Virus record (IMG/VR): IMGVR_UViG_3300042346_000188
Location: 1 to 64,000 of that record
Strand: one strand, 5' to 3'
Length of the DNA: 64,000 nt
Source of the DNA: a virus
Shown: positions 5,020-59,310 of the stretch, piece after piece
Layout of the letters: every line of letters starts with the position of its first letter
Numbering within the stretch: the stretch's first letter is position 1
Made by a program: the position numbers and the translations under genes
The notes under the pieces: model-generated
Seen by the model: only the letters and a program-made list of their open reading frames with translations
Database searches by the model: none
Told to the model about the DNA's origin: nothing

Positions 5020-5973
5020 ATGCCTAGTTTAATTACATTTGGCGGTGGTTCGGTAAAATCGTTTGGTGGTACTAGACATAAGCAAGTGTCAGGAAGTGCG
5101 CCTGGCACATATTATCCCCCTGTAATGGCTGGTGAGTTAGGCGTTACTATTCAAGGCGCATCTAGTGTATATATGCCACCACAAGGTTCTGCTCGCAAAG
5201 CCTATGCTGTGTTTACTGGTGCTGGTAATTTTCATATAACTTCTGGTTTTGGTACGGTAAATGCAATCATCTGCGCAGGTGGTGGCGGTGGTAGTAACGC
5301 TGCGTACAAAGGACAAGGTGGTGGTGGGGCTGGTGGGTTATTACAAACTACAATTACCAGTACTGTTGGTTCTAATTATGTAATAACTGTTGGGTCAGGT
5401 GGCGCAAACAACACAAAAGGGTCAAACTCATCAGTTGGTTCATATGTTGCACACGGTGGTGGTGGAGGCGGAGGTGTTACCTGGAACTCAGATAAGAGCG
5501 GTGGTTCTGGTGGGGGTGGCGGGTATAATGGAGCTGTTGGTGGAACAGCTGTAGCTGGGCAGGGTAACGCTGGTGGTGCTGGTGTTCACTCTATTAAACA
5601 AACTGTTAGGTCTGGTGGTGGTGGAGGTGGTGCTGGTGCAGCTGGAAGTAATGGAGCTGTTCGAGGTTATGGCGGTGCTGGTGGTGTAGGGTTAGCTTGC
5701 TACCCAGACCAAGGAAGAAACCCATCAATTGTGTATAATCTTGCAGGTGGTGGTGGTGGAGGTTGGTCAGGTATTACTAGTGGTAACGGTAACATATTTG
5801 GTGGTGGTTCTGCGACTGGATATAGTAATCTACCAATTGGTTCTGCTGGAACAGTCAATACAGGTGGTGGTGGTGGTGGCTGTCATACATCTAGCAACGC
5901 TAATTCGAGTGGTGGTTCTGGTATTGTAATCATTGCTTGGACAGTTCAAACAACATCAGGGGGAATAGGCTAA
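5020..5973 (+). CDS. Glycine-rich virion protein
   Basis: Multiple GGGGG runs; GGSGIVII C-terminal motif. Confidence 0.6.
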   Translation: MPSLITFGGGSVKSFGGTRHKQVSGSAPGTYYPPVMAGELGVTIQGASSVYMPPQGSARKAYAVFTGAGNFHITSGFGTVNAIICAGGGGGSNAAYKGQGGGGAGGLLQTTITSTVGSNYVITVGSGGANNTKGSNSSVGSYVAHGGGGGGGVTWNSDKSGGSGGGGGYNGAVGGTAVAGQGNAGGAGVHSIKQTVRSGGGGGGAGAAGSNGAVRGYGGAGGVGLACYPDQGRNPSIVYNLAGGGGGGWSGITSGNGNIFGGGSATGYSNLPIGSAGTVNTGGGGGGCHTSSNANSSGGSGIVIIAWTVQTTSGGIG

Positions 5974-5977
5974 TAAC

Positions 5978-6334
5978 ATGGCATACTTTGCAGAATTAGA
6001 TGAAAACAATATAGTCCTGAGAGTAATATCTGTTGACAATCACATGCTACTTGATGATGACAATATAGAACAAGAACATTTGGGCATATCTTTTTGCCAA
6101 TCTTTACTTGGCGGTAATTGGCTTCAAACAAGCTACAATACTATCGCAAATACACATACTGAAGGTAAACAACCATTTAGGAAAAATTATGCTGGAATTG
6201 ATTTTACTTATAACCAAACATTAGATGCCTTCATACCGCCACAACCTGATTCATTTTATATATTAGATGAAGATACCTGTAAATGGTATGACCCGCTTTA
6301 TGAACCGTTAACCATAGGAGTTTCTCGTGTCTGA
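5978..6334 (+). CDS. Phage hypothetical protein accompanying glycine-rich fibre genes
   Basis: MAYFAELDENN...WLQTSYN...FRKNYAGI...DAFIPPQP pattern. Confidence 0.6.
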   Translation: MAYFAELDENNIVLRVISVDNHMLLDDDNIEQEHLGISFCQSLLGGNWLQTSYNTIANTHTEGKQPFRKNYAGIDFTYNQTLDAFIPPQPDSFYILDEDTCKWYDPLYEPLTIGVSRV

Positions 6335-9329: not shown

Positions 9330-12300
9330 GTGGCCATTAATGCTAATACACAAATTTATGATAAAACACTAGATCGAGCAGCAATGCTACGACTACATGA
9401 AAGAAGGGTAGTTGGTAAGGTTGATGTAATCATTGATGGTCATATCCTTCGTCTGGACAAATTAATAAAAGCTTTTGAAGGTATGAATCCTTTTAAAGTT
9501 GCATTAGATAAAGAGTTGCACAACACGTATTCACGAATCAACAACTCAGTAGAGAAGGATTTATTGTCTTTGACTACAGATCAACTTTCTTTTGCTTACC
9601 AAAAAGTAGAAGTAGCAATGGGACATATATGGCGTACTGAACGGCCTAAAGTTCGTGTTGCTGAAGAAATTGCGCTTGCTAATCCGCTCTATAAGAATCA
9701 AACAATGGAACAAGGTTGGCAGGGTATTTCTAAAAATGAGAAGGTTAGAATTGAAGCTGTAATTCGAAAAGGAATTGCAGATGGTAGTACTATTGATGAA
9801 ATAGCATTAGCAGTACGTACAGGAAATGTTCACAATATAACTAGAAACCAAGCAAAAGGCTTAGTCATTACTGCAGTTACTTCTGTAACAAATCAAGCTG
9901 ACCACGCAATTTATAAGGCTAATGCAAAGGCATTATTAGGCTGGGAATACGTTGCTGTACTTGATGCTCGTACTACACCTTTGTGTGCAGGCAGAGATGG
10001 ACATATCTATGAGATAGGAGATGTTGTACATTTGCCTCCAGCCCATTGGCATTGCCGTTCTACAACAACACCTGTATTTAAATCATGGGATGACATTTCT
10101 AAATTAGAAAGTGTTGCTCAAATACGTAAGCGAAACTTAGCAGGACTTACGGATAAACAAAAGGCTTTTTATGATGGTAATACTCCATTAAAAGAAAGCT
10201 ATAACGATTGGCTGCTAAGACAACCACAAGATGTTCAACTAAGACATTTAGGTGATTATAAAAAAGTAGGTATGTTTAATTCTCAACAACTTACTTTGGA
10301 CAAATTTACCAATGATGAAGGTAATACAATAGGTATCAAAGAATTACGTAAGATGACAGATTCTACTTATGTACTTCCAAATGATACCCAGAAGTTTGCC
10401 AATGCTAAGGCTAAATTAGATGCAATGCAATTGCCTATAATGACACCTGAAGATTTATTTGATAATAAAGAATTAGTAAAAACATTAAGAGATTATTATT
10501 TATTACAAGCTGGAGAATTAGATGGTACTTTATCACTCACAAACTATCGCGGTGCCCTCATACACACCAAGAAATCTACCAAGACACGAGTGCTCAACAA
10601 CCTTCCAACCGAAGACCAAACAATATTTAATCCAGTCACAGGCCGTTACGAAGATACCCGACTCTACCAGCCCAATGTACAAGTACTAAATAATAACCTT
10701 AGATTACTACGCGAAAGTCCAACATTAAAACAAGCAGATAAAGACTTTATCGAAAATTTTGTTGGTAGCCTTGATGAAAAGATGGGTGCAAATGAGAGAG
10801 CTGTAGTGGCAGATAATCTTCGTATTATCTTTACTAGGTTTAGAAACAATGGTGAGCAATGGAATAACTTTAAAGCTGTTGTTCAAGGCCAAATTAAGTT
10901 TGATGTAATGAACGTATCTGATTCATTGGAAACACAACTACGTGCTGATATTGATGTACTTAAAAAGCTTAAGCAAGACAATTACATTGACCCTATATTA
11001 GGGCCTACTCAGTTGCAAGATTTGCATGATAACTTTATCAGCAATATACGCGCTAAGAATAATTGGGAAGATTCTACTGCCCCTAAAATAGCTAGAGAAT
11101 TGCGCAATACCTTTGACTACAAAATACCGCTTAAGCTTAAGTTGTTGCCTAATGGTAAGCCACGTATTAGCGAAGAAGCATTAACACAATTTTATTTGAA
11201 ATTTGCCCATAGGCTGAGTCTTGCTGATATGCCTGACAGAGATCAGTTTGCTGTAGCACTTGGTAGAGATTTATACAATCTTGCCAACCTAAATGGTAAT
11301 AGACGTGAATGGTACAGCACAGGAATGGCGCTATTAGAAGCAAAGAATGTAAAGAAATTCTTCGAAGTAGAAACGTTTGGTGTACAAAAGCGAAGAATGA
11401 AAAGTAGATTGAGTAACAGTTTGTTTGGACCTTATTATGACACTCTGTCATATAACATACGTGTGACTGATCCTCGTGTACAAGAATATGCGCAGCTCAC
11501 AAGGAAAGTGGATGTCGGCCTACGTGTTGGCGTTACAACGGATAAGAACAAGTTAATATTCCGCGAGGGTTATAAGACTTATTTTATTGACAGAGGTCTC
11601 CTAGGCCTAGAGGACACACGGATACCTATTACATCTACAAATAGTTTTGGTGATTTTCCTGAGAAGTTTGTTGATAAGAATTTGGCAGATGCTTTAAACT
11701 GGGCATCTAAGTCTAAATACAAAATTGACGAAGACTTCTACGATTTCACTCAGAAATTATTGTACTTCGAAGATGATAGAGGTAACGCTAAAAAGTACAA
11801 CGAATTGAATGAATACAAACATTATATATCTTCAAGAGGAGATGCTTATGAGAGATTCAAATCAATGGAGTGGTTACGCACTAGAGGATATTCTTTTAGT
11901 AATCATGCTTTTGTTGACCATCGCGCTCGTATATATGATCGCGGACTCATTAGTCCTCAGTCAGGAGAATCCTTCAGACCATTTCTTAACACAGAACAAT
12001 CAAAAGTGTTGGGTGAGGCCGGATACAGAAACTTCAGAGACCAAATAGGTGCATTCATGGGCGGTCTTAATGATACTTTTGAAGGACGATATAATTCGTT
12101 ATCTTTCACTGGTAGACAAAAGATTGCTGATAAGCTATGGCCTGATATGGTTGACATTGGTAATAAAATGTTACGTGCCAAACCTGCTGATATTCGTGCT
12201 ATACTAGAGTCAGAAATGGTACAACTAGTAGATGGTGAAGAGCTGGGTAAGTTCTTTAGATTCGCTATGGAGTCAGCTAAGATAGATAATCATCTTAAAG

Positions 12301-13955
12301 CTGGCGGAGCCATGGAAGACTATAAGACAGCCTTAGCTTTAGAACAAGATGCTTCATCTTCTGGTGCTCAGATCATTGCATTGACAACCAAGAACAAACA
12401 GCTAGCAGAATTATCTAATGTTGTACCTACAAATCAAAAACGTAGGCTATATGATGAGATTGCTGCTGCCACTTATAATGATCCGCGTTTTAAAGTATTA
12501 AACGAGAAGTTAGGGTTAAATGAAAAAGATTTACGAAAAGCTGCGAAAGCTCAGAACATGGTTACGTTTTATGGTGCTGGTGAACGAACTGGCATCCTTA
12601 ATGTGGAAGGTAAACTATCAAAGGTCTTGGACAAGCAAGGTAACACGTTGGTCGTTAAAGCGTCTGATCGTGATAAGGTACTTAATGAGATTTCTGCAAG
12701 AGCAGCAAGATACGAACGTTTCGATCCTGAAACAGCTGAACAGCTCAAACAGCTCAGAGCAAATGTACGCGATATCTTTAATAAAGGCCAAGATCCTGGG
12801 GACGATATTATGGAAGCGCTCTACTTCCTCGATCCAGAGACTAGGCAGTTAGTTGAAAAGATGTCTCATCAGTACGATAGAGTTGTAACACCATCAGACT
12901 TTGCTGCTATTGCAAGACTAATGTCTGAACAGCTAAGTGAACAAGTGCCTATTCTAAAAGACTTTACTAAGTTCTTTGGAAGACTTGCTGAAGATTTCTT
13001 AGTTAATTCTAAACCTTCGCAAGCAGCACTTGACTGGAAATCTATTGGTATTACCACTGCCTTAAGACCTTATCAGAAAGGTTATGTACTTCCTGATCGT
13101 ATCAGTGAAATACTGGGTTTAAAGGCAGGAGAAGCAGTAACTGAAAAGTTCTTAAAAAGGTTTAATGGCTGGAAACCAGACGGTTCTTTAGCTGATATTA
13201 TCTATGGTGTAAAAGGCCCCGATGACAGACGTACTGGCTTTAAAGTACTTAAAATTGAACCTGTAGATAAGATTGAAATATCTAAGGGTATCGAAATCTT
13301 TTATGCTAACAAGCTTCCTAAGTCTTGGACAAATGTACCTTGGGTTAATTTTGATGGTAAAATCATTGAACAGAACTTTACCCAAACATTTGAAGAAAGA
13401 CTAGCTTATAAAGATAAGGAAGGTAATTGGGTAAACAATATCTTGCAAATACCTCAAAAGACAGAGGCTACATGGTGGGAACAAGTTGTAAATGCTGATG
13501 GCAAGATTAATGATATAGCTGATGCAGGAAAAGCACGTACTGCTTTTGCCGTTAATGGCAACCATTCAAATGACGCCACATTGGTTAAGAACTTTCACCT
13601 ATGGGGTAAAGAAAATGGTATTGCCACTAGTACTATTCATGACGCATTCTTTGCTAATGCAGCAGATATGTTAAATGCTCGTGATGGTATTCGTAAATTA
13701 TACGCAAAAACATTGGATGCTAATCCCGTTGTAGCTACACTAAATGAGATGAAAGCTCGTGGATTACCTAAAGAGCTTTACGATCAATACCTTCAAGAAG
13801 CCATAGACAAGGGATTAATACCTGTAGAGGGTGTTTCTATTGTTGGTGGTAAACGCTTGAAGAAATCTGATATCCTTACTAAAGAGGATATTTTATCAAC
13901 AATACCCGATCCTACTAAATTTGAAAATGATTGGGGTTTTTATGGAATTGGATAA
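9330..13955 (+). CDS. MuF/SPP1 gp7-like minor head protein fused to a T7-family single-subunit RNA polymerase (putative virion RNAP)
   Basis: N-terminal YVAVLDARTTPLC...PPAHWHCRS (MuF); C-terminal DHRARIY, DASSSGAQ (motif A), RKAAKAQNMVTFYG (motif B), NGNHSNDA and IHDAF (motif C). Confidence 0.9.
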   Translation: MAINANTQIYDKTLDRAAMLRLHERRVVGKVDVIIDGHILRLDKLIKAFEGMNPFKVALDKELHNTYSRINNSVEKDLLSLTTDQLSFAYQKVEVAMGHIWRTERPKVRVAEEIALANPLYKNQTMEQGWQGISKNEKVRIEAVIRKGIADGSTIDEIALAVRTGNVHNITRNQAKGLVITAVTSVTNQADHAIYKANAKALLGWEYVAVLDARTTPLCAGRDGHIYEIGDVVHLPPAHWHCRSTTTPVFKSWDDISKLESVAQIRKRNLAGLTDKQKAFYDGNTPLKESYNDWLLRQPQDVQLRHLGDYKKVGMFNSQQLTLDKFTNDEGNTIGIKELRKMTDSTYVLPNDTQKFANAKAKLDAMQLPIMTPEDLFDNKELVKTLRDYYLLQAGELDGTLSLTNYRGALIHTKKSTKTRVLNNLPTEDQTIFNPVTGRYEDTRLYQPNVQVLNNNLRLLRESPTLKQADKDFIENFVGSLDEKMGANERAVVADNLRIIFTRFRNNGEQWNNFKAVVQGQIKFDVMNVSDSLETQLRADIDVLKKLKQDNYIDPILGPTQLQDLHDNFISNIRAKNNWEDSTAPKIARELRNTFDYKIPLKLKLLPNGKPRISEEALTQFYLKFAHRLSLADMPDRDQFAVALGRDLYNLANLNGNRREWYSTGMALLEAKNVKKFFEVETFGVQKRRMKSRLSNSLFGPYYDTLSYNIRVTDPRVQEYAQLTRKVDVGLRVGVTTDKNKLIFREGYKTYFIDRGLLGLEDTRIPITSTNSFGDFPEKFVDKNLADALNWASKSKYKIDEDFYDFTQKLLYFEDDRGNAKKYNELNEYKHYISSRGDAYERFKSMEWLRTRGYSFSNHAFVDHRARIYDRGLISPQSGESFRPFLNTEQSKVLGEAGYRNFRDQIGAFMGGLNDTFEGRYNSLSFTGRQKIADKLWPDMVDIGNKMLRAKPADIRAILESEMVQLVDGEELGKFFRFAMESAKIDNHLKAGGAMEDYKTALALEQDASSSGAQIIALTTKNKQLAELSNVVPTNQKRRLYDEIAAATYNDPRFKVLNEKLGLNEKDLRKAAKAQNMVTFYGAGERTGILNVEGKLSKVLDKQGNTLVVKASDRDKVLNEISARAARYERFDPETAEQLKQLRANVRDIFNKGQDPGDDIMEALYFLDPETRQLVEKMSHQYDRVVTPSDFAAIARLMSEQLSEQVPILKDFTKFFGRLAEDFLVNSKPSQAALDWKSIGITTALRPYQKGYVLPDRISEILGLKAGEAVTEKFLKRFNGWKPDGSLADIIYGVKGPDDRRTGFKVLKIEPVDKIEISKGIEIFYANKLPKSWTNVPWVNFDGKIIEQNFTQTFEERLAYKDKEGNWVNNILQIPQKTEATWWEQVVNADGKINDIADAGKARTAFAVNGNHSNDATLVKNFHLWGKENGIATSTIHDAFFANAADMLNARDGIRKLYAKTLDANPVVATLNEMKARGLPKELYDQYLQEAIDKGLIPVEGVSIVGGKRLKKSDILTKEDILSTIPDPTKFENDWGFYGIG

Positions 13956-18868: not shown

Positions 18869-19084
18869 ATGGCTAAAATTAAACCATTCAGTATTGACTA
18901 TGTTGTCGGTATTACCGTTAAACATATGCTGAAAAGTATAGACGTCAGTATTAATAAAACATTCCAACGTACGAAAGATGGTTCACTTTCAGCTGAAAAA
19001 TCAGTGGAAGCGTTTGAAGCATTATCCGTATTACATCAAATGAGAGCGCAACTAAATGAACGCCCAAACAATCAAGGTAAATAA
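18869..19084 (+). CDS. Hypothetical protein (start revised to ATG 18869)
   Basis: The longer ORF-track start overlaps the terminator. Confidence 0.55.
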   Translation: MAKIKPFSIDYVVGITVKHMLKSIDVSINKTFQRTKDGSLSAEKSVEAFEALSVLHQMRAQLNERPNNQGK

Positions 19085-19085
19085 T

Positions 19086-19403
19086 ATGTCAGAAGCAAAA
19101 GGTATTAAAGGTCTAGTCGGCCAAAAAATGAACAAATCTACTAAATTTTTAGGTAGTGATGTTAAAATTTCGAAACTAACAGTAGCAGAAGTTGTAGAAA
19201 TCCAAAAGCGTGCTCAAGATATTGAAAAAGATGAGACTGCTGGTTTGGAAGTTTTGAAACTAGTAATTCGTTCTGCTGTAGAAGGCGGTGACGAATTAAC
19301 CGATGATGATTTTGATAACTTTCCAATGGATGAATTATCTAGACTTTCAAATGATATTATGAAATTCTCAGGTATGGGTCAAGATCAGGGAAAGTCGTCT
19401 TAA
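19086..19403 (+). CDS. Tail assembly chaperone (lambda gpG-like)
   Basis: Between tail tube and tape measure; ends at a GGGAAAG slippery site. Confidence 0.75.
   Translation: MSEAKGIKGLVGQKMNKSTKFLGSDVKISKLTVAEVVEIQKRAQDIEKDETAGLEVLKLVIRSAVEGGDELTDDDFDNFPMDELSRLSNDIMKFSGMGQDQGKSS
19388..19394 (+). other. Programmed -1 frameshift site GGGAAAG
   Basis: Same heptamer as lambda G/GT; the -1 frame (VVLSDEELPIFEIAYQLKMPV...) is open into 19448..19738. Confidence 0.85.
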
Positions 19404-51845: not shown

Positions 51846-52511
51846 ATGGCCAAAAGAGTTAGGAAGGAACAGCCTACAGATGTTATTGATGCAGTCAAAC
51901 CAATAACACTCTTGACTAAAGCACAGAAACAGTATTTCAATTCAATGAAAACGAATACTATTACTTTTGGGATTGGCGTTGCGGGGACGGGAAAGTCTTA
52001 CGTTGCAATCTCCTATGCTGCACAATTGTTACAAGAGAAGAAGATAAACAAGATTATCTTAACAAGGCCAGCTGTTGAGGCTGGAGAATCGTTTGGATTT
52101 CTTCCTGGAGAGTTAGATGAAAAGTATGCGCCTTATATTGATCCTGTAAAAGATATACTTAATAAAAGATTAGGTACATCTTTCACTGATTACTTGTTTA
52201 AACGAAAGATTATTGAAGCGCGGCCACTAGCATTTATTAGGGGAAGTACTTTTGAAGAAGCTTTTGTAATACTAGATGAGGCTCAAAACTGTACACCTAC
52301 TCAGATGAAAATGTTTCTAACTAGAATTGGCGAAGATGCAAAAGTTGTTATAGATGGGGATATCCAACAAAAGGATATCAAAGGCACATCAGGATTGTCT
52401 GATGCAATTGTAAGATTGCAAGGGATGAACGATGTGGGTATTGTTACATTTGACATTGAAGATGTTGTCCGTAGCGGCATCTGTAAAGAAATTATTAGGA
52501 GGTATGCATGA
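51846..52511 (+). CDS. phoH: PhoH-like ATPase
   Basis: GVAGTGKS Walker A, LTRPAVEAGE, GFLPG, RGSTF, DEAQN and GDIQQ. Confidence 0.95.
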   Translation: MAKRVRKEQPTDVIDAVKPITLLTKAQKQYFNSMKTNTITFGIGVAGTGKSYVAISYAAQLLQEKKINKIILTRPAVEAGESFGFLPGELDEKYAPYIDPVKDILNKRLGTSFTDYLFKRKIIEARPLAFIRGSTFEEAFVILDEAQNCTPTQMKMFLTRIGEDAKVVIDGDIQQKDIKGTSGLSDAIVRLQGMNDVGIVTFDIEDVVRSGICKEIIRRYA

Positions 52512-52690
52512 AGTATATATGGGCAAGGCTTAAAGAGCCTTCAACATGGTTTGGACTGATTTCAGCTACATTAGCTGTATTAAGTTCGTTTAAATTTATT
52601 ACATTAACAGCAGAAGAAATGGATAGTCTGCTTGCGTTGTCAGTTGCTCTTTTGGGCAGTGGTAGCGTAGTATCCAAAGATCCACAATAG
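52508..52690 (+). CDS. Putative holin (two TM segments)
   Basis: RLKEPSTWFG followed by hydrophobic helices; 60 aa. Confidence 0.6.
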   Translation: MKYIWARLKEPSTWFGLISATLAVLSSFKFITLTAEEMDSLLALSVALLGSGSVVSKDPQ

Positions 52691-52696
52691 CGGTAC

Positions 52697-52724
52697 GCCT
52701 CGACACAATTGTCGGGGCTTTTTT
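52697..52724 (+). terminator. Rho-independent terminator ending the late region
   Basis: GCCTCGACA-CAAT-TGTCGGGGC then TTTTTT. Confidence 0.85.
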
Positions 52725-52930
52725 ACGAGAGTCATGGGGGCAATTTTGCGGGGCAAGACGGGGCATTTCTGCACGAATTTTGGTGGGCGGCAAATCTGGG
52801 CCTGTGTGGCGCGGGGCGGTGGGGGCATCACTGGTGGATCAGGGTGGCAGTTGCGTGCCGTGTAGGGCAGTTTCTGGTGCCAGAACGGGTACACGTGGGG
52901 CAGTTGCGTGCAGTTCTTCAGGTACACTCA
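52725..52930. repeat. GC-rich, G-skewed non-coding tract with GGGCA/GGCAGTT repeats
   Basis: Repeated GGGGCA and two copies of GGCAGTTGCGTGC in an otherwise AT-rich genome. Confidence 0.65.
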
Positions 52931-52949
52931 ACCCCGTTAAATTAACCCT
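52931..52949 (+). promoter_or_regulatory. Class A repeat, copy 3
   Basis: Exact ACCCCGTTAAATTAACCCT. Confidence 0.75.
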
Positions 52950-52984
52950 TGCGGCCTCCCCCTGTATTATCTCTCTTAGTAATA

Positions 52985-53017
52985 CGGAAATAATAGTATC
53001 TTATATGAAGTACAATA
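52985..53017 (+). promoter_or_regulatory. Class B repeat CGGRAA-N5-GTATCTTATATGAAGTACAATA, copy 1 (putative early promoter)
   Basis: Exact 22-mer at 52996..53017; CGG starts 11 nt upstream in all three copies. Confidence 0.75.
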
Positions 53018-53040
53018 ATAACCTTATATAGGATAACATT

Positions 53041-53871
53041 ATGTTTATTACAAGAAAAATGGTATTAAAAGATTTTGCAGTTAATCGTAAGAAAGCTACA
53101 AAGAAATATGGCAAGCATGAGTTGCCTCAAATTGACTATTCAAGTGATGCTCTGTCTTACAACATAAAAACTGTTTTGGCAACTTATCTTCAAGCCGGTA
53201 GTATGGCCTATGCACAGTTGAAACTCCACTCCGAAGCTGCAATTTCTTTGTGGGAACCTACTAAAAGGATATTTAAGATAGATCCTACAGTGTCTGCTGA
53301 ATTGTGTAATTCAGCTGTTAGCGCTAGGGTGCCTGTAGATATTATAAGACTTCCTGATTGGTCTATAAGAGTTGATTGCCCTGAGATGCAACTAATGGCC
53401 TGTAAGTTGCGAGTACATGCCAATGGTGATATAGAAGATATGTTAGTAATAGTCATTGATGAAGAAAAAGAGCAAGTTGCAAAGGCTCTACGCCTAAATG
53501 AACCCTGGTGCGCTGATGAAGACACTGAAGAGGCTAAAGCTTACATTGGAAAGGCACTTTCTCTTTTATTATATTTGAGCACAGTGCATAATAGCGTTCC
53601 AAGATCTGCTTATAAAAAGTATACGGCTCTTAGTAAGAAAAATCAAACCAAACCTTTTATCTATCCTGAAAAAGCTTCTATAGTAAAGATAGGAGAAGAG
53701 CTTGGAAAAATGCTTCAAACAGCTTATACAAAGCAAGCAGGCTACAGTATGAAAGCGCACATAAGAAGAGCGCATTGGCATAACTATTGGACAGGTCCGA
53801 AAGATAATAGGAAGCTAATATGTAAGTGGACAAACTCCACAGGTGTTAATATGAATTTAGCCGATGTATAA
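53041..53871 (+). CDS. Early hypothetical protein with C-terminal HxRRxHW motif
   Basis: HIRRAHWHNYWTG; first gene after the class B repeat. Confidence 0.65.
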   Translation: MFITRKMVLKDFAVNRKKATKKYGKHELPQIDYSSDALSYNIKTVLATYLQAGSMAYAQLKLHSEAAISLWEPTKRIFKIDPTVSAELCNSAVSARVPVDIIRLPDWSIRVDCPEMQLMACKLRVHANGDIEDMLVIVIDEEKEQVAKALRLNEPWCADEDTEEAKAYIGKALSLLLYLSTVHNSVPRSAYKKYTALSKKNQTKPFIYPEKASIVKIGEELGKMLQTAYTKQAGYSMKAHIRRAHWHNYWTGPKDNRKLICKWTNSTGVNMNLADV

Positions 53872-53873
53872 CG

Positions 53874-53906
53874 CGGGAAATACGGTATCTTATATGAAGT
53901 ACAATA
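53874..53906 (+). promoter_or_regulatory. Class B repeat, copy 2
   Basis: Exact 22-mer at 53885..53906. Confidence 0.75.
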
Positions 53907-53923
53907 CTAACTTGGAGATTAAA

Positions 53924-54133
53924 ATGAAATACGAAGTGTTTATATTTGAACGTAATGCCGACAGTTATCATGATAGAGCAAATTTATTAAAAGCTTATAG
54001 AAGTTTTGAAGAATATGAGGATAAGATGGTGTTTGTTGTTGATACCGAAACAGGTGCCTTTGAGGTTATCTGTAATAAAGAGCAACTAAGTCTAGCAGCT
54101 GCAAAATTATTGTATATGGGGGAATTAAGATGA
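53924..54133 (+). CDS. Early hypothetical protein (start revised)
   Basis: GGAG RBS before ATG 53924; the ORF-track start runs through the promoter repeat. Confidence 0.6.
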   Translation: MKYEVFIFERNADSYHDRANLLKAYRSFEEYEDKMVFVVDTETGAFEVICNKEQLSLAAAKLLYMGELR

Positions 54134-54429
54134 GCACAGTAATGTTTATGATTGACGCGGTTTTAGATATACGCGTTAGAACCCATTCAGTATTTGAATA
54201 TGTACTATTCGAAGCTGAGTGTTACGATGAGTGTATTACTCTCCTAGACAGCGCTGATGCACGTCTTAGAGTTGGTAATAATTACTCATATTCTTGGAAC
54301 CATACCCATTGGGATGGACAAAGATTAGAGTCATTTATTACACTTTTAGATTTACTTGATGATGATAAGTACAAATTAAACGTCCTTACAGAGGGCCATC
54401 TTTTTCAACAAGGGGTATTAGTATTATGA
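54130..54429 (+). CDS. Early hypothetical protein
   Basis: ATGA-coupled ORF. Confidence 0.6.
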   Translation: MSTVMFMIDAVLDIRVRTHSVFEYVLFEAECYDECITLLDSADARLRVGNNYSYSWNHTHWDGQRLESFITLLDLLDDDKYKLNVLTEGHLFQQGVLVL

Positions 54430-54584
54430 GTGAATGGTATAGCTTTATCGAAGCAATGTTACTGGTTGGTTTTTATTTTGTTTATGTAGCTTACAATGTA
54501 TTTGCAGAAGACTGCAAAGATAGACGTAAGTATTGCAAGGTACGTCGTTGGGCACGGCATGCTCTGCAAAAGGACTACAAATAA
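54426..54584 (+). CDS. Small membrane protein (52 aa)
   Basis: MSEWYSFIEAMLLVGFYFVYVAY... with basic tail; ATGA-coupled. Confidence 0.5.
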   Translation: MSEWYSFIEAMLLVGFYFVYVAYNVFAEDCKDRRKYCKVRRWARHALQKDYK

Positions 54585-54587
54585 ACG

Positions 54588-54620
54588 CGGAAAACGGGGT
54601 ATCTTATATGAAGTACAATA
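54588..54620 (+). promoter_or_regulatory. Class B repeat, copy 3
   Basis: Exact 22-mer at 54599..54620. Confidence 0.75.
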
Positions 54621-54658
54621 AGGTACCTCAATTCAATTAATCCAAGAGGAGAAAAATT

Positions 54659-54889
54659 ATGTTTAGTTTACTTGATTCACAATGTGCTTGTGTAGGTAGC
54701 AGTTATGATATATTCACGGAAGAATATTTTGAAGCACTATACCATATCGAGTATGGCGACGGAAAAGAGTCTCACGCCTTCTTGGATCATCATTTGAAGG
54801 GTAAACAAAAATCTGAACCAGCGTCTGAGTTCAAAGACGTAAAAACAATACAGATTCCATTTGAGGAGGAGTTTGAAGGCTATTGGTAA
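54659..54889 (+). CDS. Early hypothetical acidic protein
   Basis: GAGGAG RBS. Confidence 0.6.
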   Translation: MFSLLDSQCACVGSSYDIFTEEYFEALYHIEYGDGKESHAFLDHHLKGKQKSEPASEFKDVKTIQIPFEEEFEGYW

Positions 54890-54896
54890 CAGCCGC

Positions 54897-54926
54897 ATAG
54901 ACCTGAGTAGGTCTATAAAGTGCTTA
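54897..54926 (+). ncRNA. Candidate H-type pseudoknot, copy 1
   Basis: ATAGAC/GTCTAT stem 1 and TGAGTA/TGCTTA stem 2; same architecture at 59283. Confidence 0.45.
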
Positions 54927-54978
54927 TGTGTATAAGGATGTGTATCCTATACTGATGAGACTATAAAGTCGAAACAAC
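54927..54978 (+). ncRNA. Hammerhead ribozyme type III, copy 1
   Basis: GUA site, stem I, CUGAUGA, stem II GACU-AUAA-AGUC, GAAAC; stem III is short. Confidence 0.75.
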
Positions 54979-54996
54979 TCCAAGAGGAAATTTACA

Positions 54997-55281
54997 ATGA
55001 AAAACAAATTAGATAAACTAGCTTTAATTGGTGTCCTAAACACTTTCTGGGTGTTTGAACGCAACGGGATGGGCGGTGTACCCTCCTTTGATTTCACTAA
55101 TAAAAAAGCTGGAGTTAATGTCTGGCACATCGAGGGCGACAAAGTAGGCATAATGTTACTTGAAACAAAGGAGGTATTTGAAACTAACCTAGAATGGGAT
55201 GAGATTTCCGAATCCTATGGGCTTGGAGATTGGGATATTCCAAGATTAAATTCTCTAATTAACTTAACTGAAGGTGATTAA
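54997..55281 (+). CDS. Early hypothetical protein
   Basis: GAGGA RBS just downstream of hammerhead 1. Confidence 0.6.
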   Translation: MKNKLDKLALIGVLNTFWVFERNGMGGVPSFDFTNKKAGVNVWHIEGDKVGIMLLETKEVFETNLEWDEISESYGLGDWDIPRLNSLINLTEGD

Positions 55282-55282
55282 A

Positions 55283-55468
55283 ATGGAAGGTACAATTTTT
55301 GAAATTGGTGGTTATGAGTTTTACATAGCTTGGAATGAAAAGATGACAATCTACAAAGTATGGTATGATCGCGGCCATTACCTTGATAGACGCGCTCCAA
55401 GGTTTGAATGCACTTCTTATGAGGAATCTGTGGCATTCTGTAAACTCAAATACGCTTACTGTGGGTAA
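55283..55468 (+). CDS. Early hypothetical protein
   Basis: AGGTGA RBS; start 55283 or 55274. Confidence 0.5.
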   Translation: MEGTIFEIGGYEFYIAWNEKMTIYKVWYDRGHYLDRRAPRFECTSYEESVAFCKLKYAYCG

Positions 55469-55522
55469 GTGTCTCGGGATGTGTATCCCAACTGACGAGT
55501 CTAAAAAGACGAAACACACTTA
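55466..55522 (+). ncRNA. Hammerhead ribozyme type III, copy 2
   Basis: GUC site, stem I GGGAU-GUGU-AUCCC, CUGACGA, stem II GUCU-AAAA-AGAC, GAAAC, stem III. Confidence 0.88.
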
Positions 55523-55533
55523 GGAGTTATATT

Positions 55534-55710
55534 ATGTTTACTATTGAAATCAATGATGTAGAAATTGAAATGAAAGAAACAGGAATGGGTATTTGGGAAG
55601 GTTCTAAAGAATTTTATCAAGTAGTATTTGATGAATTTCTTCAAGAATTGTTTGTAGCAGCAATGCTAGGCAATCGTATTGTTAAGTGTGAGAGTCAATT
55701 CTTATGCTAA
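55534..55710 (+). CDS. Early hypothetical protein (58 aa, not in ORF track)
   Basis: AGGAG RBS directly after hammerhead 2; MFTIEINDVE...SQFLC*. Confidence 0.6.
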   Translation: MFTIEINDVEIEMKETGMGIWEGSKEFYQVVFDEFLQELFVAAMLGNRIVKCESQFLC

Positions 55711-55828
55711 AACATACAGTTTATGGTATTGGAAATACCGTAATGTCTTCAATAGATATGAGTGCAGATGTAATTACAATTGGGCTAGCATTAGCTCTAC
55801 TTTTAATGTTTACAAAATAGGTGATATT

Positions 55829-56248
55829 ATGTTTCCTTTAATTGCTTTAGGTGTTACAGCTTTAGGTGGATTTGGTTATACTAAAACAAATTCTTACAAA
55901 AGAAAAGTAGAACGTCATGCAAGACGTGCTGCTGAGAAAGCAACAAAAATTGCGAAAACCCAACTAGAGGCTGAAGCCTTGCATGACCTGATGGTAGAAG
56001 ATATGGCTAAGTCAGACTCTGCTAATCTTGAAGGTCGATTCTGTGTTAACGAGAAAGATAAGGAGTTAAAATATGTACGCTCAATACGAACATTAAAGCT
56101 GGATAATTTACAAATACTTTCGTATGAGAAAGATGATACGGAAGTAGCAGTTGTTGATACAAAGGGTTCGGTCGTCCCCTTCTATTTGAAAAAGAACGAT
56201 GCGCTTCTACTACAAGAAATTTTAGACAAACGGTTTCCAACACCGTAA
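55829..56248 (+). CDS. Membrane-anchored hypothetical protein (start revised)
   Basis: AGGTGA RBS; N-terminal MFPLIALGVTALGGFG. Confidence 0.55.
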   Translation: MFPLIALGVTALGGFGYTKTNSYKRKVERHARRAAEKATKIAKTQLEAEALHDLMVEDMAKSDSANLEGRFCVNEKDKELKYVRSIRTLKLDNLQILSYEKDDTEVAVVDTKGSVVPFYLKKNDALLLQEILDKRFPTP

Positions 56249-56483
56249 GTTGGAGAGTATTGTAGTCATATCTAAGGATTACAATGGCATTTCTACAATA
56301 CTCGGTTACAATTCTGTTAATGTTTGCTTTATTAGGCATCTCGCTTGTTAGTTTTACTGTAGGTACATGTATTCACCTACACAGAACAGGAGTAAGAAAA
56401 TGCCGTTAATTTATTTAGCAGTTGTTGTATTAGTTGCAAAAGTTATGGACTCCGTTATTAACGAAGACAAGTAACAAAAACAC

Positions 56484-56531
56484 ACCCCTTTCAGATTCGA
56501 TTCCTTAACAGGTTTCGGGTTTGAGAGGGGT
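56484..56531 (+). other. Long imperfect hairpin upstream of the RNAP gene (terminator or processing site)
   Basis: CCCCTTTCAGATTCGA pairs with TCGGGTTTGAGAGGGG using G-U pairs; pyrimidine tract follows. Confidence 0.55.
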
Positions 56532-56552
56532 TCCTCCTTTATTTTTTCCATT

Positions 56553-58781
56553 TTGGTACTTATGCGAAATAAATTATTACGTTCTTTAAAGTCTAGAATT
56601 GTATCTGAGATTGCTCCTCAATCTCCATTACGATTCTTAAAGAAGTTGAATATCGAAGATCATCTTGATGAGATAATTGCCAACGCTTATTTGTATACTA
56701 GGCCTAAGAAAGGCTCTGATAAGCAGATTATAATGTCAGAGGTAATTAGTATTCTTGGCCATAACATGCGAAAAGGTGAAAAGAAAGACTCTGCTACTGC
56801 AGCAAGATGCGGAGCATTCATTCTGTATTCTTTTGACAGCTTAGGTCTAACAGAAATTGTAATGACTAATGCAGCCAATGGGCACGGTACATATATTGTT
56901 AATGTAATTGATGAAAAGAGTATGCAAGAGTTGTGGGAAACTGTTGGTAGGCAAGGAGGTAAGGGAAAACTGCCCTCACTAGTACCATATGAAGATTGGA
57001 AAGGGTTTAAACATTCTACAGGCTTGTCTTTAGTTAAGACACAGTCTAGAGAGGTTGCAGCTACACTAACACCAGCTACTCATCCTATTGTATTTGAAGC
57101 AGTAAATAAGAGTCAAAGAGTTGGCTGGATTATAAACCAAGAAGTATACGCAATTGCTAAGTGGGCGTTGAGTAATAAAACAGAAGCATTCTCAGATATT
57201 TGGGAACAAAACAATCCACAGGCAAGAACAACAAAGCTGCGAGAAACCAAAGCAATTTTAAGTATTGCAGATAAGTTTACTGATACAACTTTCTATCATC
57301 TGTACTACCTTGATTTTAGAGGTCGTAAGTACCCTACAACAGCATATCTGCATGAACAATCTTCAGATATAGCTAAAGGCTTACTGCTTAGAAAAGACAA
57401 GAAAGTTATTGGACAAGAGGGTTTCTTTTGGCTATGTGTATCTATTGCATCTAATTGGGCAGGCAGCTCAGGCAGAGAAGATGGTGCAAAGACTGACAAA
57501 ATACCACTTAGAGATAGATACCATTGGGTTCTAGACAATGAAGAGATTTTAACAGCTTATGCAATGTCGCCTAAGTTGCATCAAGGTTGGATGGATGCTG
57601 ATAAGCCTTGGCAATTCCTTGCAGCTTGTGTAGAGCTTAAGAATGCATTAAGTATGGGTTCAATGTACTTACAGTATGAATCACATATAGAATGCTTTAT
57701 TGACGGTTCTACTAATGGCTCTCAACATTTAAGTGCGTTAACTAGAGATGAAGTTACTGCCCCTTATGTTAATTTAGTACCGCTAGATATGCCTGGTGAT
57801 TTATATGCATACGTAGCTGCTCATGTGTGGATGAAGATTGATTCAGTTCTTAGCAGAATGCCACCTGCATTAATACTAGAATGTGAAGAATTCATTGATG
57901 GATTAATATCGCTGAAGAAGAAAATTGTAGCTGCAGAGCCTAAATCTGATTTGAGAGCAGAATTAGTAATGCAAATTAGACAGTACAAAAAAGATTGGGA
58001 ATCTGTTGGCAATAAAGCTGCACCTGTATTCTGGGGTAGAATTAAAGACTCTAAGCAAAGACGTAAAATTGTAAAGAGAAATGTAATGACACTACCTTAT
58101 GGGGGCTCTAGCTATGGTCTATCTGAACAACAAATAGATGATTCAAAGAAACATGGCATAGAGTTGTTAATGAATATGGAGCATAAATGGGCAGCTTGGA
58201 TGGGCAGATTGGTATATGAAGATGCTAAAGACTCGCTAGAAAGACCTATGATGTTGTTGTCTGTATTTGAAAAAGCTGGTGCAGCTGCAGAGAAAAGAGG
58301 TCAATTCTTAGAGTGGGTTGTGCCTGTAACAAACTTTCCTGTAGTACAAAACTATACAGAGGGTAAGACTAAGAGAATACATATTCAGTGGGGGCCTCGA
58401 ATTGGTATTAGAAGCGATACCACAGGATACTTTGGGAATGATCTGCAATTGCATGTATGTTTCATTGAGGATCAAGTTCCCTCAAAAGGAAAGCAGTCTC
58501 AAGGAGCAGCACCTAATGTAATCCATTCTTTGGATGCAGCACATCTAGCAATGACAACAGTTAGATGTGATTTTCCTATCACTACAATACATGATTCATA
58601 TGGATGCCTATTAGCAGACATGCCTAAGCTTTATCGTATTGTGCGTGAGACATTTGTTGAGTTGTACCGAGATAATCCTTTGTACCCTATCATAGATAAG
58701 ATTGATGGTGATCTTACTTATGTAGATATGGGTGATTTGGATGTTAATTTAATTCTAGAAAGTGAATATGCTTTCGCATAG
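56553..58781 (+). CDS. T7-family single-subunit DNA-directed RNA polymerase (stand-alone; start may be ATG 56562)
   Basis: DFRGRKY, PWQFLA, DGSTNGSQH (A), RKIVKRNVMTLPYG (B), PNVIHSLDA and IHDSY (C). Confidence 0.96.
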   Translation: MVLMRNKLLRSLKSRIVSEIAPQSPLRFLKKLNIEDHLDEIIANAYLYTRPKKGSDKQIIMSEVISILGHNMRKGEKKDSATAARCGAFILYSFDSLGLTEIVMTNAANGHGTYIVNVIDEKSMQELWETVGRQGGKGKLPSLVPYEDWKGFKHSTGLSLVKTQSREVAATLTPATHPIVFEAVNKSQRVGWIINQEVYAIAKWALSNKTEAFSDIWEQNNPQARTTKLRETKAILSIADKFTDTTFYHLYYLDFRGRKYPTTAYLHEQSSDIAKGLLLRKDKKVIGQEGFFWLCVSIASNWAGSSGREDGAKTDKIPLRDRYHWVLDNEEILTAYAMSPKLHQGWMDADKPWQFLAACVELKNALSMGSMYLQYESHIECFIDGSTNGSQHLSALTRDEVTAPYVNLVPLDMPGDLYAYVAAHVWMKIDSVLSRMPPALILECEEFIDGLISLKKKIVAAEPKSDLRAELVMQIRQYKKDWESVGNKAAPVFWGRIKDSKQRRKIVKRNVMTLPYGGSSYGLSEQQIDDSKKHGIELLMNMEHKWAAWMGRLVYEDAKDSLERPMMLLSVFEKAGAAAEKRGQFLEWVVPVTNFPVVQNYTEGKTKRIHIQWGPRIGIRSDTTGYFGNDLQLHVCFIEDQVPSKGKQSQGAAPNVIHSLDAAHLAMTTVRCDFPITTIHDSYGCLLADMPKLYRIVRETFVELYRDNPLYPIIDKIDGDLTYVDMGDLDVNLILESEYAFA

Positions 58782-59093: not shown

Positions 59094-59284
59094 GTGTAAT
59101 TGGCGGTGGAAAGAATAAAGAACCACAAATAAAGATTTTTAAAGTTGTTCAAGGTGATCCAGATCATATTGATCAATTAAATGTACTAATTGCCAATAGC
59201 TGGCAAATTACAGAAATCATTTCTCTTAGCGGCTTTTTAAATATGCCAGGGGAAGCTCACTATTTATTGGAAAAAGTAGATTAA
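59084..59284 (+). CDS. Hypothetical protein
   Basis: GAGGA RBS; overlapping ORF. Confidence 0.55.
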   Translation: MALSVIGGGKNKEPQIKIFKVVQGDPDHIDQLNVLIANSWQITEIISLSGFLNMPGEAHYLLEKVD

Positions 59285-59310
59285 GCCTGGGCATGCTTCT
59301 TAACTGCCCA
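59283..59310 (+). ncRNA. Candidate H-type pseudoknot, copy 2
   Basis: AAGC/GCTT stem 1 and TGGGCA/TGCCCA stem 2. Confidence 0.45.

What the first reader, a model, noticed from the sequence alone, without database searches (positions are those of the whole stretch)
54927..54978. Second hammerhead ribozyme with compensatory changes, copy 1
Seen: GUA triplet (cut predicted after A54932), stem I AGGAU/AUCCU with the same GUGU loop, CUGAUGA, stem II GACU/AGUC and GAAAC, upstream of the RBS of 54997. Relative to copy 2 the stems covary (GACU/AGUC vs GUCU/AGAC; AGGAU/AUCCU vs GGGAU/AUCCC), indicating selection on structure. Stem III is only ~3 bp, so activity may be weaker or conditional.
Basis: partly seen in the sequence, partly recalled or inferred. 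Interest (0 to 1): 0.75.

Follow-up and report, generated by a model that had tools for sequence, protein, structure and literature searches.

The report
Weak-stemmed hammerhead ribozyme between phage genes
The flagged 52 bases are a real member of the well-known self-cutting hammerhead RNA family, lying between two small early genes of an uncultured lake phage, but it has the weakest closing stem of its family and this kind of arrangement in phages has been known since 2011.

Summary
At 54929-54976 (+ strand) every hammerhead core base is present: GUA (cut predicted after A54932), CUGAUGA, GAAA, and the G-C pair that opens stem II. Stem I has 7 bp with one bulged A, stem II has 4 bp, and stem III has only 3 bp.

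Rfam's type III model scores it 27.1 bits, below the 48.5-bit cut-off. Two virusoid-sized records with the same loop I also fall below that cut-off (44 bits). A hammerhead descriptor hits 2 of 300 shuffled windows.

The 12-base stem-loop I (GGAUGUGUAUCC) plus the core retrieved 34 viral contigs, 13 MAG contigs (11 Patescibacteria) and cultured Flavobacterium phages. All three stems covary strongly across this family.

Most family members lie 18-42 nt before a start codon. Many follow a hairpin and occur several per contig.

Copy 1 has the family's shortest stem III and its lowest predicted fold stability. It lies in a gene cassette that the closest relatives lack.

Most likely it cuts the early polycistronic RNA between genes 54659-54889 and 54997-55281; cleavage is untested.

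This is a new member of a known kind (Perreault 2011). This scan has noted the same hairpin-plus-hammerhead layout on many other genomes.

The parts
54583..54625 (+). Promoter-like 43-nt box, third copy of a repeat. It is the likely start of the transcript that carries gene A, hammerhead 1 and the downstream genes.
   Evidence: Repeat family D1 at 52980, 53869 and 54583. The same box is present in relatives L003 and L029. Promoter function is inferred.
54659..54889 (+). Gene A, a 76-aa ORFan upstream of the ribozyme
   Evidence: ORF list. No PHROG match.
54897..54926 (+). Hairpin (stem 54897-54903 with 54910-54916, loop UGAGUA) followed by UGCUUA at 54921-54926, which is complementary to the loop. 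This is a possible small pseudoknot that would cap the 3' end of the upstream cleavage product.
   Evidence: Sequence and fold. A second copy with covarying loop and tail lies at 59283-59310. It is 88% conserved with the ribozyme's 5' half in L029.
54929..54932 (+). Stem III 5' strand (UGU) plus A54932 (H17). The predicted cut is between 54932 and 54933.
54933..54951 (+). Stem-loop I: 7 bp with bulged A54949, containing the family-wide GGAUGUGUAUCC
54952..54958 (+). Catalytic core strand CUGAUGA
54959..54970 (+). Stem-loop II, GACU/AGUC with loop AUAA. It opens with the canonical G10.1-C11.1 pair.
54971..54976 (+). Core GAA plus stem III 3' strand ACA
54982..55281 (+). RBS (54982-54990) and gene B (ATG 54997, 94 aa). 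This is the first gene on the predicted 3' cleavage product.
   Evidence: No PHROG match.
55283..55468 (+). Gene C (61 aa), the second gene between the two ribozymes
55466..55520 (+). Hammerhead copy 2: GUC at 55471-55473 with the cut after C55473, core CUGACGA, stem III 4 bp
   Evidence: Rfam 35 bits. Model R1 60.8 bits. Conserved in L003, L021 and L022.

Best explanation
The element is a type III hammerhead ribozyme within the + strand early transcript of an 81-kb uncultured lake phage that encodes T7-type RNA polymerases.

Once the RNA through about 54976 has been made, stems I and II fold and dock through their loops, and the short stem III closes the junction. The 2'-OH of A54932 then attacks its own 3' phosphate.

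The upstream piece carries gene A. It would end in a 2',3'-cyclic phosphate 6 nt after a hairpin or pseudoknot that could block 3' exonucleases. The downstream piece would start with a 5'-OH and the roughly 45-nt folded ribozyme body, then the RBS and gene B 22 nt later.

Together with copy 2, 541 nt downstream, this would cut the early message into a gene A piece, a gene B plus C piece and the remainder. Each piece would have defined ends and a ribosome site freed from upstream context.

Shown here: the motif, its statistical support, family covariation, and the conserved placement before start codons and after hairpins. Inferred: that copy 1 cleaves (probably more slowly than typical members), and every downstream consequence for RNA stability or translation.
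For: The complete core and three helices can be read at the stated coordinates.

The single-family Rfam E-value is 4.5e-5. The descriptor hits 2 of 300 shuffles.

The shared stem-loop I plus core pattern retrieves 34 viral contigs, 13 MAG contigs and cultured Flavobacterium phages.

In 14 non-window members, 96.9% of cells pair and 9 of 16 pairs change on both sides. In 39 distinct members the figures are 94.6% and 13 of 16.

A model built without the window sequences scores copy 1 at 54.3 bits and finds only the two copies in the whole genome. That score is partly circular, because the seeds were fished with the window's own motif.

A15.1 lies 18-42 nt before the next ATG in nearly all members. 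A hairpin lies upstream in many members, and 41% of upstream windows have z below -2. Several hammerheads per contig on one strand are common.

A strain variant in a lake RNA library carries a different hammerhead 3' half (a different stem II, and ACAGUUU in place of copy 1's ACA after GAA) joined to the same gene B leader at 54979 (table 7).

The L029 orthologue keeps the hairpin and 5' flank but has fully compensated changes in stem II (UCC/GGA) and a 5-bp stem III.

Perreault et al. 2011 showed that clustered prophage hammerheads cleave in vitro and in E. coli (PMC3088659).
Against: Stem III has 3 bp, the shortest of all well-scoring members, which have 4-8 bp.

The nearest-neighbour probability of the hammerhead fold is about 2e-7, roughly 9.5 kcal/mol above the ensemble. 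Typical members reach 1e-2 to 0.5.

In the 111-nt context, the minimum-energy fold pairs 54919-54927 with the core and stem II strand AUGAGACU.

Loop II is AUAA where the family has NAAA.

The score is below the Rfam gathering cut-off.

The closest relatives (92-97% identity) lack copy 1 altogether, so it is dispensable.
Confidence: 0.6

Rival explanations
1. It is a decaying or catalytically feeble hammerhead. The motif descends from an active ribozyme but no longer cuts usefully. It persists as a structured leader or as the conserved end of an exchangeable gene cassette.
For: It has the shortest stem III and the lowest predicted fold probability in the family. It has a bulge in stem I and an off-consensus loop II. 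It is absent from the closest relatives. Perreault et al. note that some clustered hammerheads may not be functional.
Against: No core base is mutated. Copy 2 and L029's second hammerhead also have short stem III (4 bp each) and non-Watson-Crick positions in stem I, which suggests a lineage habit rather than decay. No base differences within 54920-54983 were listed in the laid lake runs (table 3). Nearest-neighbour energies ignore the core and loop-loop tertiary contacts.
Confidence: 0.25
2. It is a conditional ribozyme. Cleavage is gated by a competing helix between 54919-54927 and the core strand, by the upstream pseudoknot, or by ribosomes finishing gene A 43 nt before the cut. Processing would then depend on translation or timing.
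For: The competing helix is the minimum-energy fold in context. In copy 2 an upstream hairpin likewise uses the stem III 5' strand. Marginal stem III stability would make the fold sensitive to context.
Against: The competing helix is only partly kept in the L029 orthologue, judged by eye from the sequence, with no covariation seen. The fold z-score is modest at -2.25. Both partners are conserved for other reasons.
Confidence: 0.1
3. The two hammerheads excise the 541-nt gene B plus C RNA (54933-55473), and a host RtcB-type ligase or the ribozyme itself then circularises it.
For: The ends would be a 5'-OH and a 2',3'-cyclic phosphate. Both copies share GUGU in the stem III 5' strand, so a chimeric hammerhead could reform (repeat D2). 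Perreault et al. raise this possibility.
Against: The same authors could not detect circular or spliced products. The chimeric stem III would again have only 3 bp.
Confidence: 0.03
4. It is a chance resemblance to the hammerhead consensus in AT-rich intergenic DNA.
For: The Rfam score is below the cut-off, with E of 0.15 when all families are counted.
Against: The descriptor hits 2 of 300 shuffles. Its 12-nt stem-loop I is identical to that of copy 2 and of dozens of covarying hammerheads. An orthologue is present in L029.
Confidence: 0.01

Closest known systems
Type III hammerhead ribozymes (Rfam RF00008, clan CL00010), as in sobemovirus circular satellites and viroids
   Same: Same core, same topology (helices I and II capped, III open), and an identical GGAUGUGUAUCC stem-loop I to that in two 366- and 377-nt records, L012 and L015. 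From memory, not verified here, those sizes match the velvet tobacco mottle and Solanum nodiflorum mottle virus satellites.
   Different: It is encoded in a dsDNA phage between protein genes, not in a rolling-circle RNA replicon. It has AU-rich stems, a 3-bp stem III, and a score below the Rfam cut-off.
Clustered hammerheads flanking single genes or short gene blocks in prophages (Perreault et al. 2011, PMC3088659)
   Same: Two ribozymes on the coding strand bracket two small genes of unknown function in a phage. The proposed role is the same: cutting a long phage transcript into gene-length messages.
   Different: This is a lytic-looking, uncultured freshwater phage with its own RNA polymerases, not a prophage. 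It belongs to a type III subfamily with a fixed loop I and a recurrent upstream hairpin. I did not find the hairpin mentioned in the section and text passages of that paper that I read.
RNase III processing sites between T7 early genes (own knowledge, not tested here)
   Same: Both lie between small early genes upstream of a T7-type RNA polymerase gene. Cutting would leave a hairpin at the 3' end of the upstream message.
   Different: Here the RNA would cut itself, with no host enzyme, and the end chemistry differs (5'-OH and cyclic phosphate). This is a functional analogy only.
RiboJ-type synthetic ribozyme insulators (own knowledge)
   Same: A satellite-type hammerhead placed just before an RBS, so that cleavage removes the upstream RNA context.
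   Different: This element is natural, and nothing has been measured.

Membership tests
Hammerhead ribozyme, type III (RF00008) | Conserved core: C3-U4-G5-A6-N7-G8-A9, G12-A13-A14, the A15.1-U16.1 pair, and H17 not G | tested here: met
   CUGAUGA at 54952-58, GAA at 54971-73, A54974 paired with U54931, and A54932 as H17
Hammerhead ribozyme, type III (RF00008) | Three helices around the core, with I and II closed by loops and III open | tested here: met
   Stem I has 7 bp with one bulge, stem II has 4 bp, and stem III has 3 bp. Stem III is the shortest in the family.
Hammerhead ribozyme, type III (RF00008) | A G10.1-C11.1 pair opening stem II | tested here: met
   G54959 pairs with C54970. In 12 of the 39 distinct sequences aligned to the family model this position does not form a standard pair.
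Hammerhead ribozyme, type III (RF00008) | Score at or above Rfam's gathering cut-off (48.5 bits) | tested here: not met
   27.1 bits. The virusoid-sized records L012 and L015 also fail at 44 bits, and most phage members do not reach E of 0.01. The cut-off is therefore too strict for this subfamily.
Hammerhead ribozyme, type III (RF00008) | Helices supported by covariation in homologues | tested here: met
   Family alignments A2 and A3. Copy 1 against copy 2 and against the L029 orthologue shows compensated changes in stems I and II.
Hammerhead ribozyme, type III (RF00008) | Loop I to loop II tertiary contact that gives fast cleavage at low Mg2+ | tested here: inconclusive
   Loop I is identical to the family's. 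Loop II is AUAA where the family has NAAA. No structural test was possible.
Hammerhead ribozyme, type III (RF00008) | Site-specific self-cleavage after H17 | not testable with these tools
   Only assembled RNA contigs were available, and these cannot show RNA ends.
Clustered phage/prophage hammerheads (Perreault 2011) | Two or more hammerheads on one strand, close together, flanking single genes or short gene blocks in phage DNA | tested here: met
   The copies at 54929-54976 and 55466-55520 bracket genes B and C. They are the only two in the 81-kb genome.

The most novel reading that the evidence does not exclude
The hairpin or pseudoknot plus hammerhead unit may do more than process RNA. It may be a conserved 'bookend' at which freshwater phages, and Patescibacteria, swap small gene cassettes. 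Each incoming gene would then arrive with its own RNA-level insulation: a defined 5' end before its RBS and a capped 3' end for the gene ahead. Strain variants and relatives break exactly at the edges of these non-coding elements (54640, 54899, 54924, 54959, 54979, 55271), while the genes between them differ.
Probability: 0.15. Interest if true: 0.55.

Novelty: new member of a known kind. Interest (0 to 1): 0.3.

Why it matters
The biological role of bacterial and phage hammerheads is still unsettled 15 years after their discovery. On its own, this copy adds one more example, and a marginal one.

The context found while checking it is more useful. Standard Rfam thresholds miss a type III subfamily with a fixed loop I. 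That subfamily lies in a repeated layout of stop codon, hairpin, ribozyme and RBS in lake phages and Patescibacteria. It is also present, unannotated, in cultured Flavobacterium phages (Elemovirus), where cleavage and its effect on infection could be tested directly.

Tried and rejected
Rfam at gathering thresholds found nothing in the window.

DNA similarity of 54400-55800 to GenBank phages found no match.

Lake metatranscriptome and DNA contigs were laid on 52400-57400. Contigs cannot show RNA ends. The RNA contigs that start at 54982, 55489, 55504 and 55527 are explained by strain-variant branch points, so they give no evidence for or against cleavage.

No back-joined (circular) junction was listed. 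With contigs this says nothing either way.

The nearest cultured relative by RNA polymerase, roseophage DSS3_VP1 (33% identity), has no hit with the family model.

I considered a longer, interrupted stem III formed by 54868-54873 with 54976-54981, judged by eye. I rejected it because the L029 orthologue has no counterpart.

I could not verify the identity of L012 and L015 as named plant-virus satellites from the papers I read.

PHROG and Pfam searches gave no function for genes A to D.

The model R1 scores for the window copies are not independent evidence, because the seeds were retrieved with a pattern taken from the window.

Full report
**What is there.** The window is the first 64 kb of an 81,115-base IMG/VR phage record.
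- The flagged stretch lies in a 107-nt gap between two small + strand ORFs, 54659-54889 and 54997-55281.
- The RBS follows at 54982-54990 and the ATG at 54997.

**Is it more than chance?**
- Rfam reports nothing at its gathering cut-offs.
- With E-value reporting, the type III hammerhead model aligns end to end to two places only. These are 55466-55520 (35 bits) and 54925-54980 (27.1 bits; E of 0.15 against all families, 4.5e-5 for that family alone).
- A descriptor I wrote finds copy 1 and hits only 2 of 300 dinucleotide shuffles of the window. It requires NUH, stem I of at least 5 bp, CUGANGA, stem II of at least 3 bp, GAAA, and stem III of at least 3 bp.
- The sub-threshold Rfam score is not a strong objection. 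Two 366- and 377-nt records with the same loop I score only 44 bits, and most phage relatives score lower still. I recall those sizes as two sobemovirus satellites but could not verify that.

**The family.**
- The stem-loop I that both copies share (GGAUGUGUAUCC), followed by CUGANGAG and CGAAAC, retrieved 34 viral contigs and 13 MAG contigs, 11 of them Patescibacteria.
- A BLAST search then led to 68 cultured Flavobacterium phage records. One of them (L054:4007-4071) scores 57.1 bits with my model and lies unannotated 11 nt before a start codon.
- The parts of these sequences not fixed by the search pattern covary cleanly. In 14 non-window members, 96.9% of cells pair (31-45% when partners are slid) and 9 of 16 pairs change on both sides.
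- In 39 distinct members, including hits not selected by the pattern, 94.6% of cells pair and 13 of 16 pairs change on both sides.
- A covariance model built without the window sequences finds exactly the two copies in the whole genome, at 60.8 and 54.3 bits. This is partly circular, because the seeds were fished with the window's motif.

**Conserved layout.**
- In nearly all members, the ribozyme's 3' end lies 18-42 nt before the next ATG on the same strand.
- Many members are preceded by a strong hairpin that ends within a few bases of stem III. Among upstream 45-nt windows, 41% have a fold z-score below -2, though the set is redundant.
- Contigs often carry three to five copies 1-1.5 kb apart.
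- This matches the clustered prophage hammerheads of Perreault et al. 2011, which cleaved in vitro and in E. coli.
- Earlier notes of this scan report the same hairpin-plus-hammerhead layout on many other genomes.

**How copy 1 differs.**
- Its stem III (3 bp) is the shortest among well-scoring members, which have 4-8 bp.
- Loop II is AUAA where the family has NAAA, and stem I has a bulge.
- In nearest-neighbour terms, the hammerhead fold of copy 1 is about 9.5 kcal/mol above the ensemble. This is the worst of the family, and copy 2 is next worst.
- In context, the minimum-energy fold pairs 54919-54927 with the core strand.
- These energies ignore the tertiary contacts that drive real hammerheads, so they rank the members rather than decide activity.
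- On the other side, no core base is altered. Copy 2 and L029's second hammerhead also have short stems III (4 bp each) and non-Watson-Crick positions in stem I, so this looks like a lineage habit.

**Relatives.**
- Three contigs at 92-97% identity (L003, L021, L022) keep copy 2 but lack copy 1. Window 54641-55270 (gene A, hammerhead 1, gene B) is replaced there by 266 nt holding one different gene.
- A more distant contig, L029, has the same promoter-like box, different genes, and then the same hairpin plus the 5' flank of hammerhead 1 (88% over 61 nt). That is followed by a hammerhead with a different loop I, a fully compensated stem II and a 5-bp stem III.
- Lake DNA and RNA contigs show further variants that break at 54640, 54899, 54924, 54979 and 55271.
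- One of these joins a different hammerhead 3' half to the same gene B leader.
- So a hammerhead before gene B recurs while its sequence is exchanged, and cassette borders coincide with the non-coding elements.

**Genome context.**
- The phage encodes a 742-aa T7-type RNA polymerase just downstream (56553-58781), a MuF-RNA polymerase fusion, PhoH, a family A DNA polymerase, a primase-helicase, ribonucleotide reductase, a ligase and an AAA_33 kinase.
- Its nearest cultured relative by polymerase is roseophage DSS3_VP1 at 33% identity.
- A 43-nt repeat at 52980, 53869 and 54583 looks like a promoter set for these early genes.
- The region occurs in lake-water DNA runs from more than a dozen studies and in lake metatranscriptome contigs.

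**Reading.**
- Most likely (0.6) copy 1 is a working but weak hammerhead. It would cut the early polycistronic RNA after A54932.
- Gene A's message would then end just after a hairpin or pseudoknot, and gene B's message would begin with a 5'-OH, the folded ribozyme body and a free RBS.
- The main rival (0.25) is a feeble or dead copy that persists as a cassette border.
- A conditional ribozyme (0.1), a circular RNA product (0.03) and chance (0.01) follow.
- The effect of a 5'-OH end on stability cannot be predicted without knowing the host. From my own knowledge, a 5'-OH protects against 5'-monophosphate-dependent RNase E entry but marks the glmS product for RNase J1.

**Verdict.** This is a genuine new member of a known kind and is of modest interest in itself. 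The family-level layout and the cultured Flavobacterium phage example are the more useful results.

Noticed in passing
window 52980-53022, 53869-53911, 54583-54625: A 43-nt direct repeat with a 22-nt near-identical core (GTATCTTATATGAAGTACAATA). Each copy lies about 20-40 nt before an RBS and ATG. The repeat is also present in relatives L003 and L029. It is probably a phage-specific early promoter.
   Followed up: partly
window 54897-54926 and 59283-59310: A small hairpin whose loop is complementary to a hexamer 4-6 nt downstream (UGAGUA with UGCUUA; UGGGCA with UGCCCA). Loop and tail covary between the two copies, so this may be an H-type pseudoknot placed after stop codons.
   Followed up: partly
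L054:4007-4071 (MT497017.1, reverse strand, about 19080-19144): Cultured Flavobacterium phage vB_FspP_elemoA_7-9A, and 67 further Flavobacterium phage records with the same BLAST hit, carry an unannotated hammerhead of this family 11 nt before the first gene of an operon. I found no paper mentioning it.
   Followed up: partly
L040-L052 (MAG contigs): Eleven of the 13 bacterial contigs with this hammerhead subfamily are Patescibacteria (Saccharibacteria, Paceibacterota, Giovannonibacteria, Parcubacteria). Most have a hairpin abutting stem III, and a GTTCTTTG-like motif recurs just downstream.
   Followed up: partly
L008:4919-4985, 5384-5438, 6185-6239: A twister-P5 ribozyme above Rfam's cut-off (51.2 bits) and two weaker twister-P1-like hits lie within 1.6 kb of a family hammerhead (L008:4646-4708) in another viral contig.
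   Followed up: no
L009:4060-4122, L009:5583-5645, L013:2194-2256, L020:8165-8227, L028:8857-8919: Several otherwise complete family members have U opposite U at the 10.1/11.1 position that normally holds a G-C pair. In all, 12 of the 39 distinct aligned sequences do not form a standard pair there.
   Followed up: no
window 54641-55270 compared with L003:1990-2255: This is a strain-variable cassette. Close relatives replace gene A, hammerhead 1 and gene B with a single unrelated 266-nt gene. Lake contigs show further variants with borders at the edges of the non-coding elements.
   Followed up: partly
window 9330-13955 and 56553-58781; L039:5692-7840: There are two single-subunit RNA polymerases, one fused to a MuF domain and one stand-alone of 742 aa. 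An AAA_33 P-loop kinase lies next to an ATP-dependent ligase. The kinase could act on the 5'-OH ends that ribozymes create, but this is untested.
   Followed up: partly
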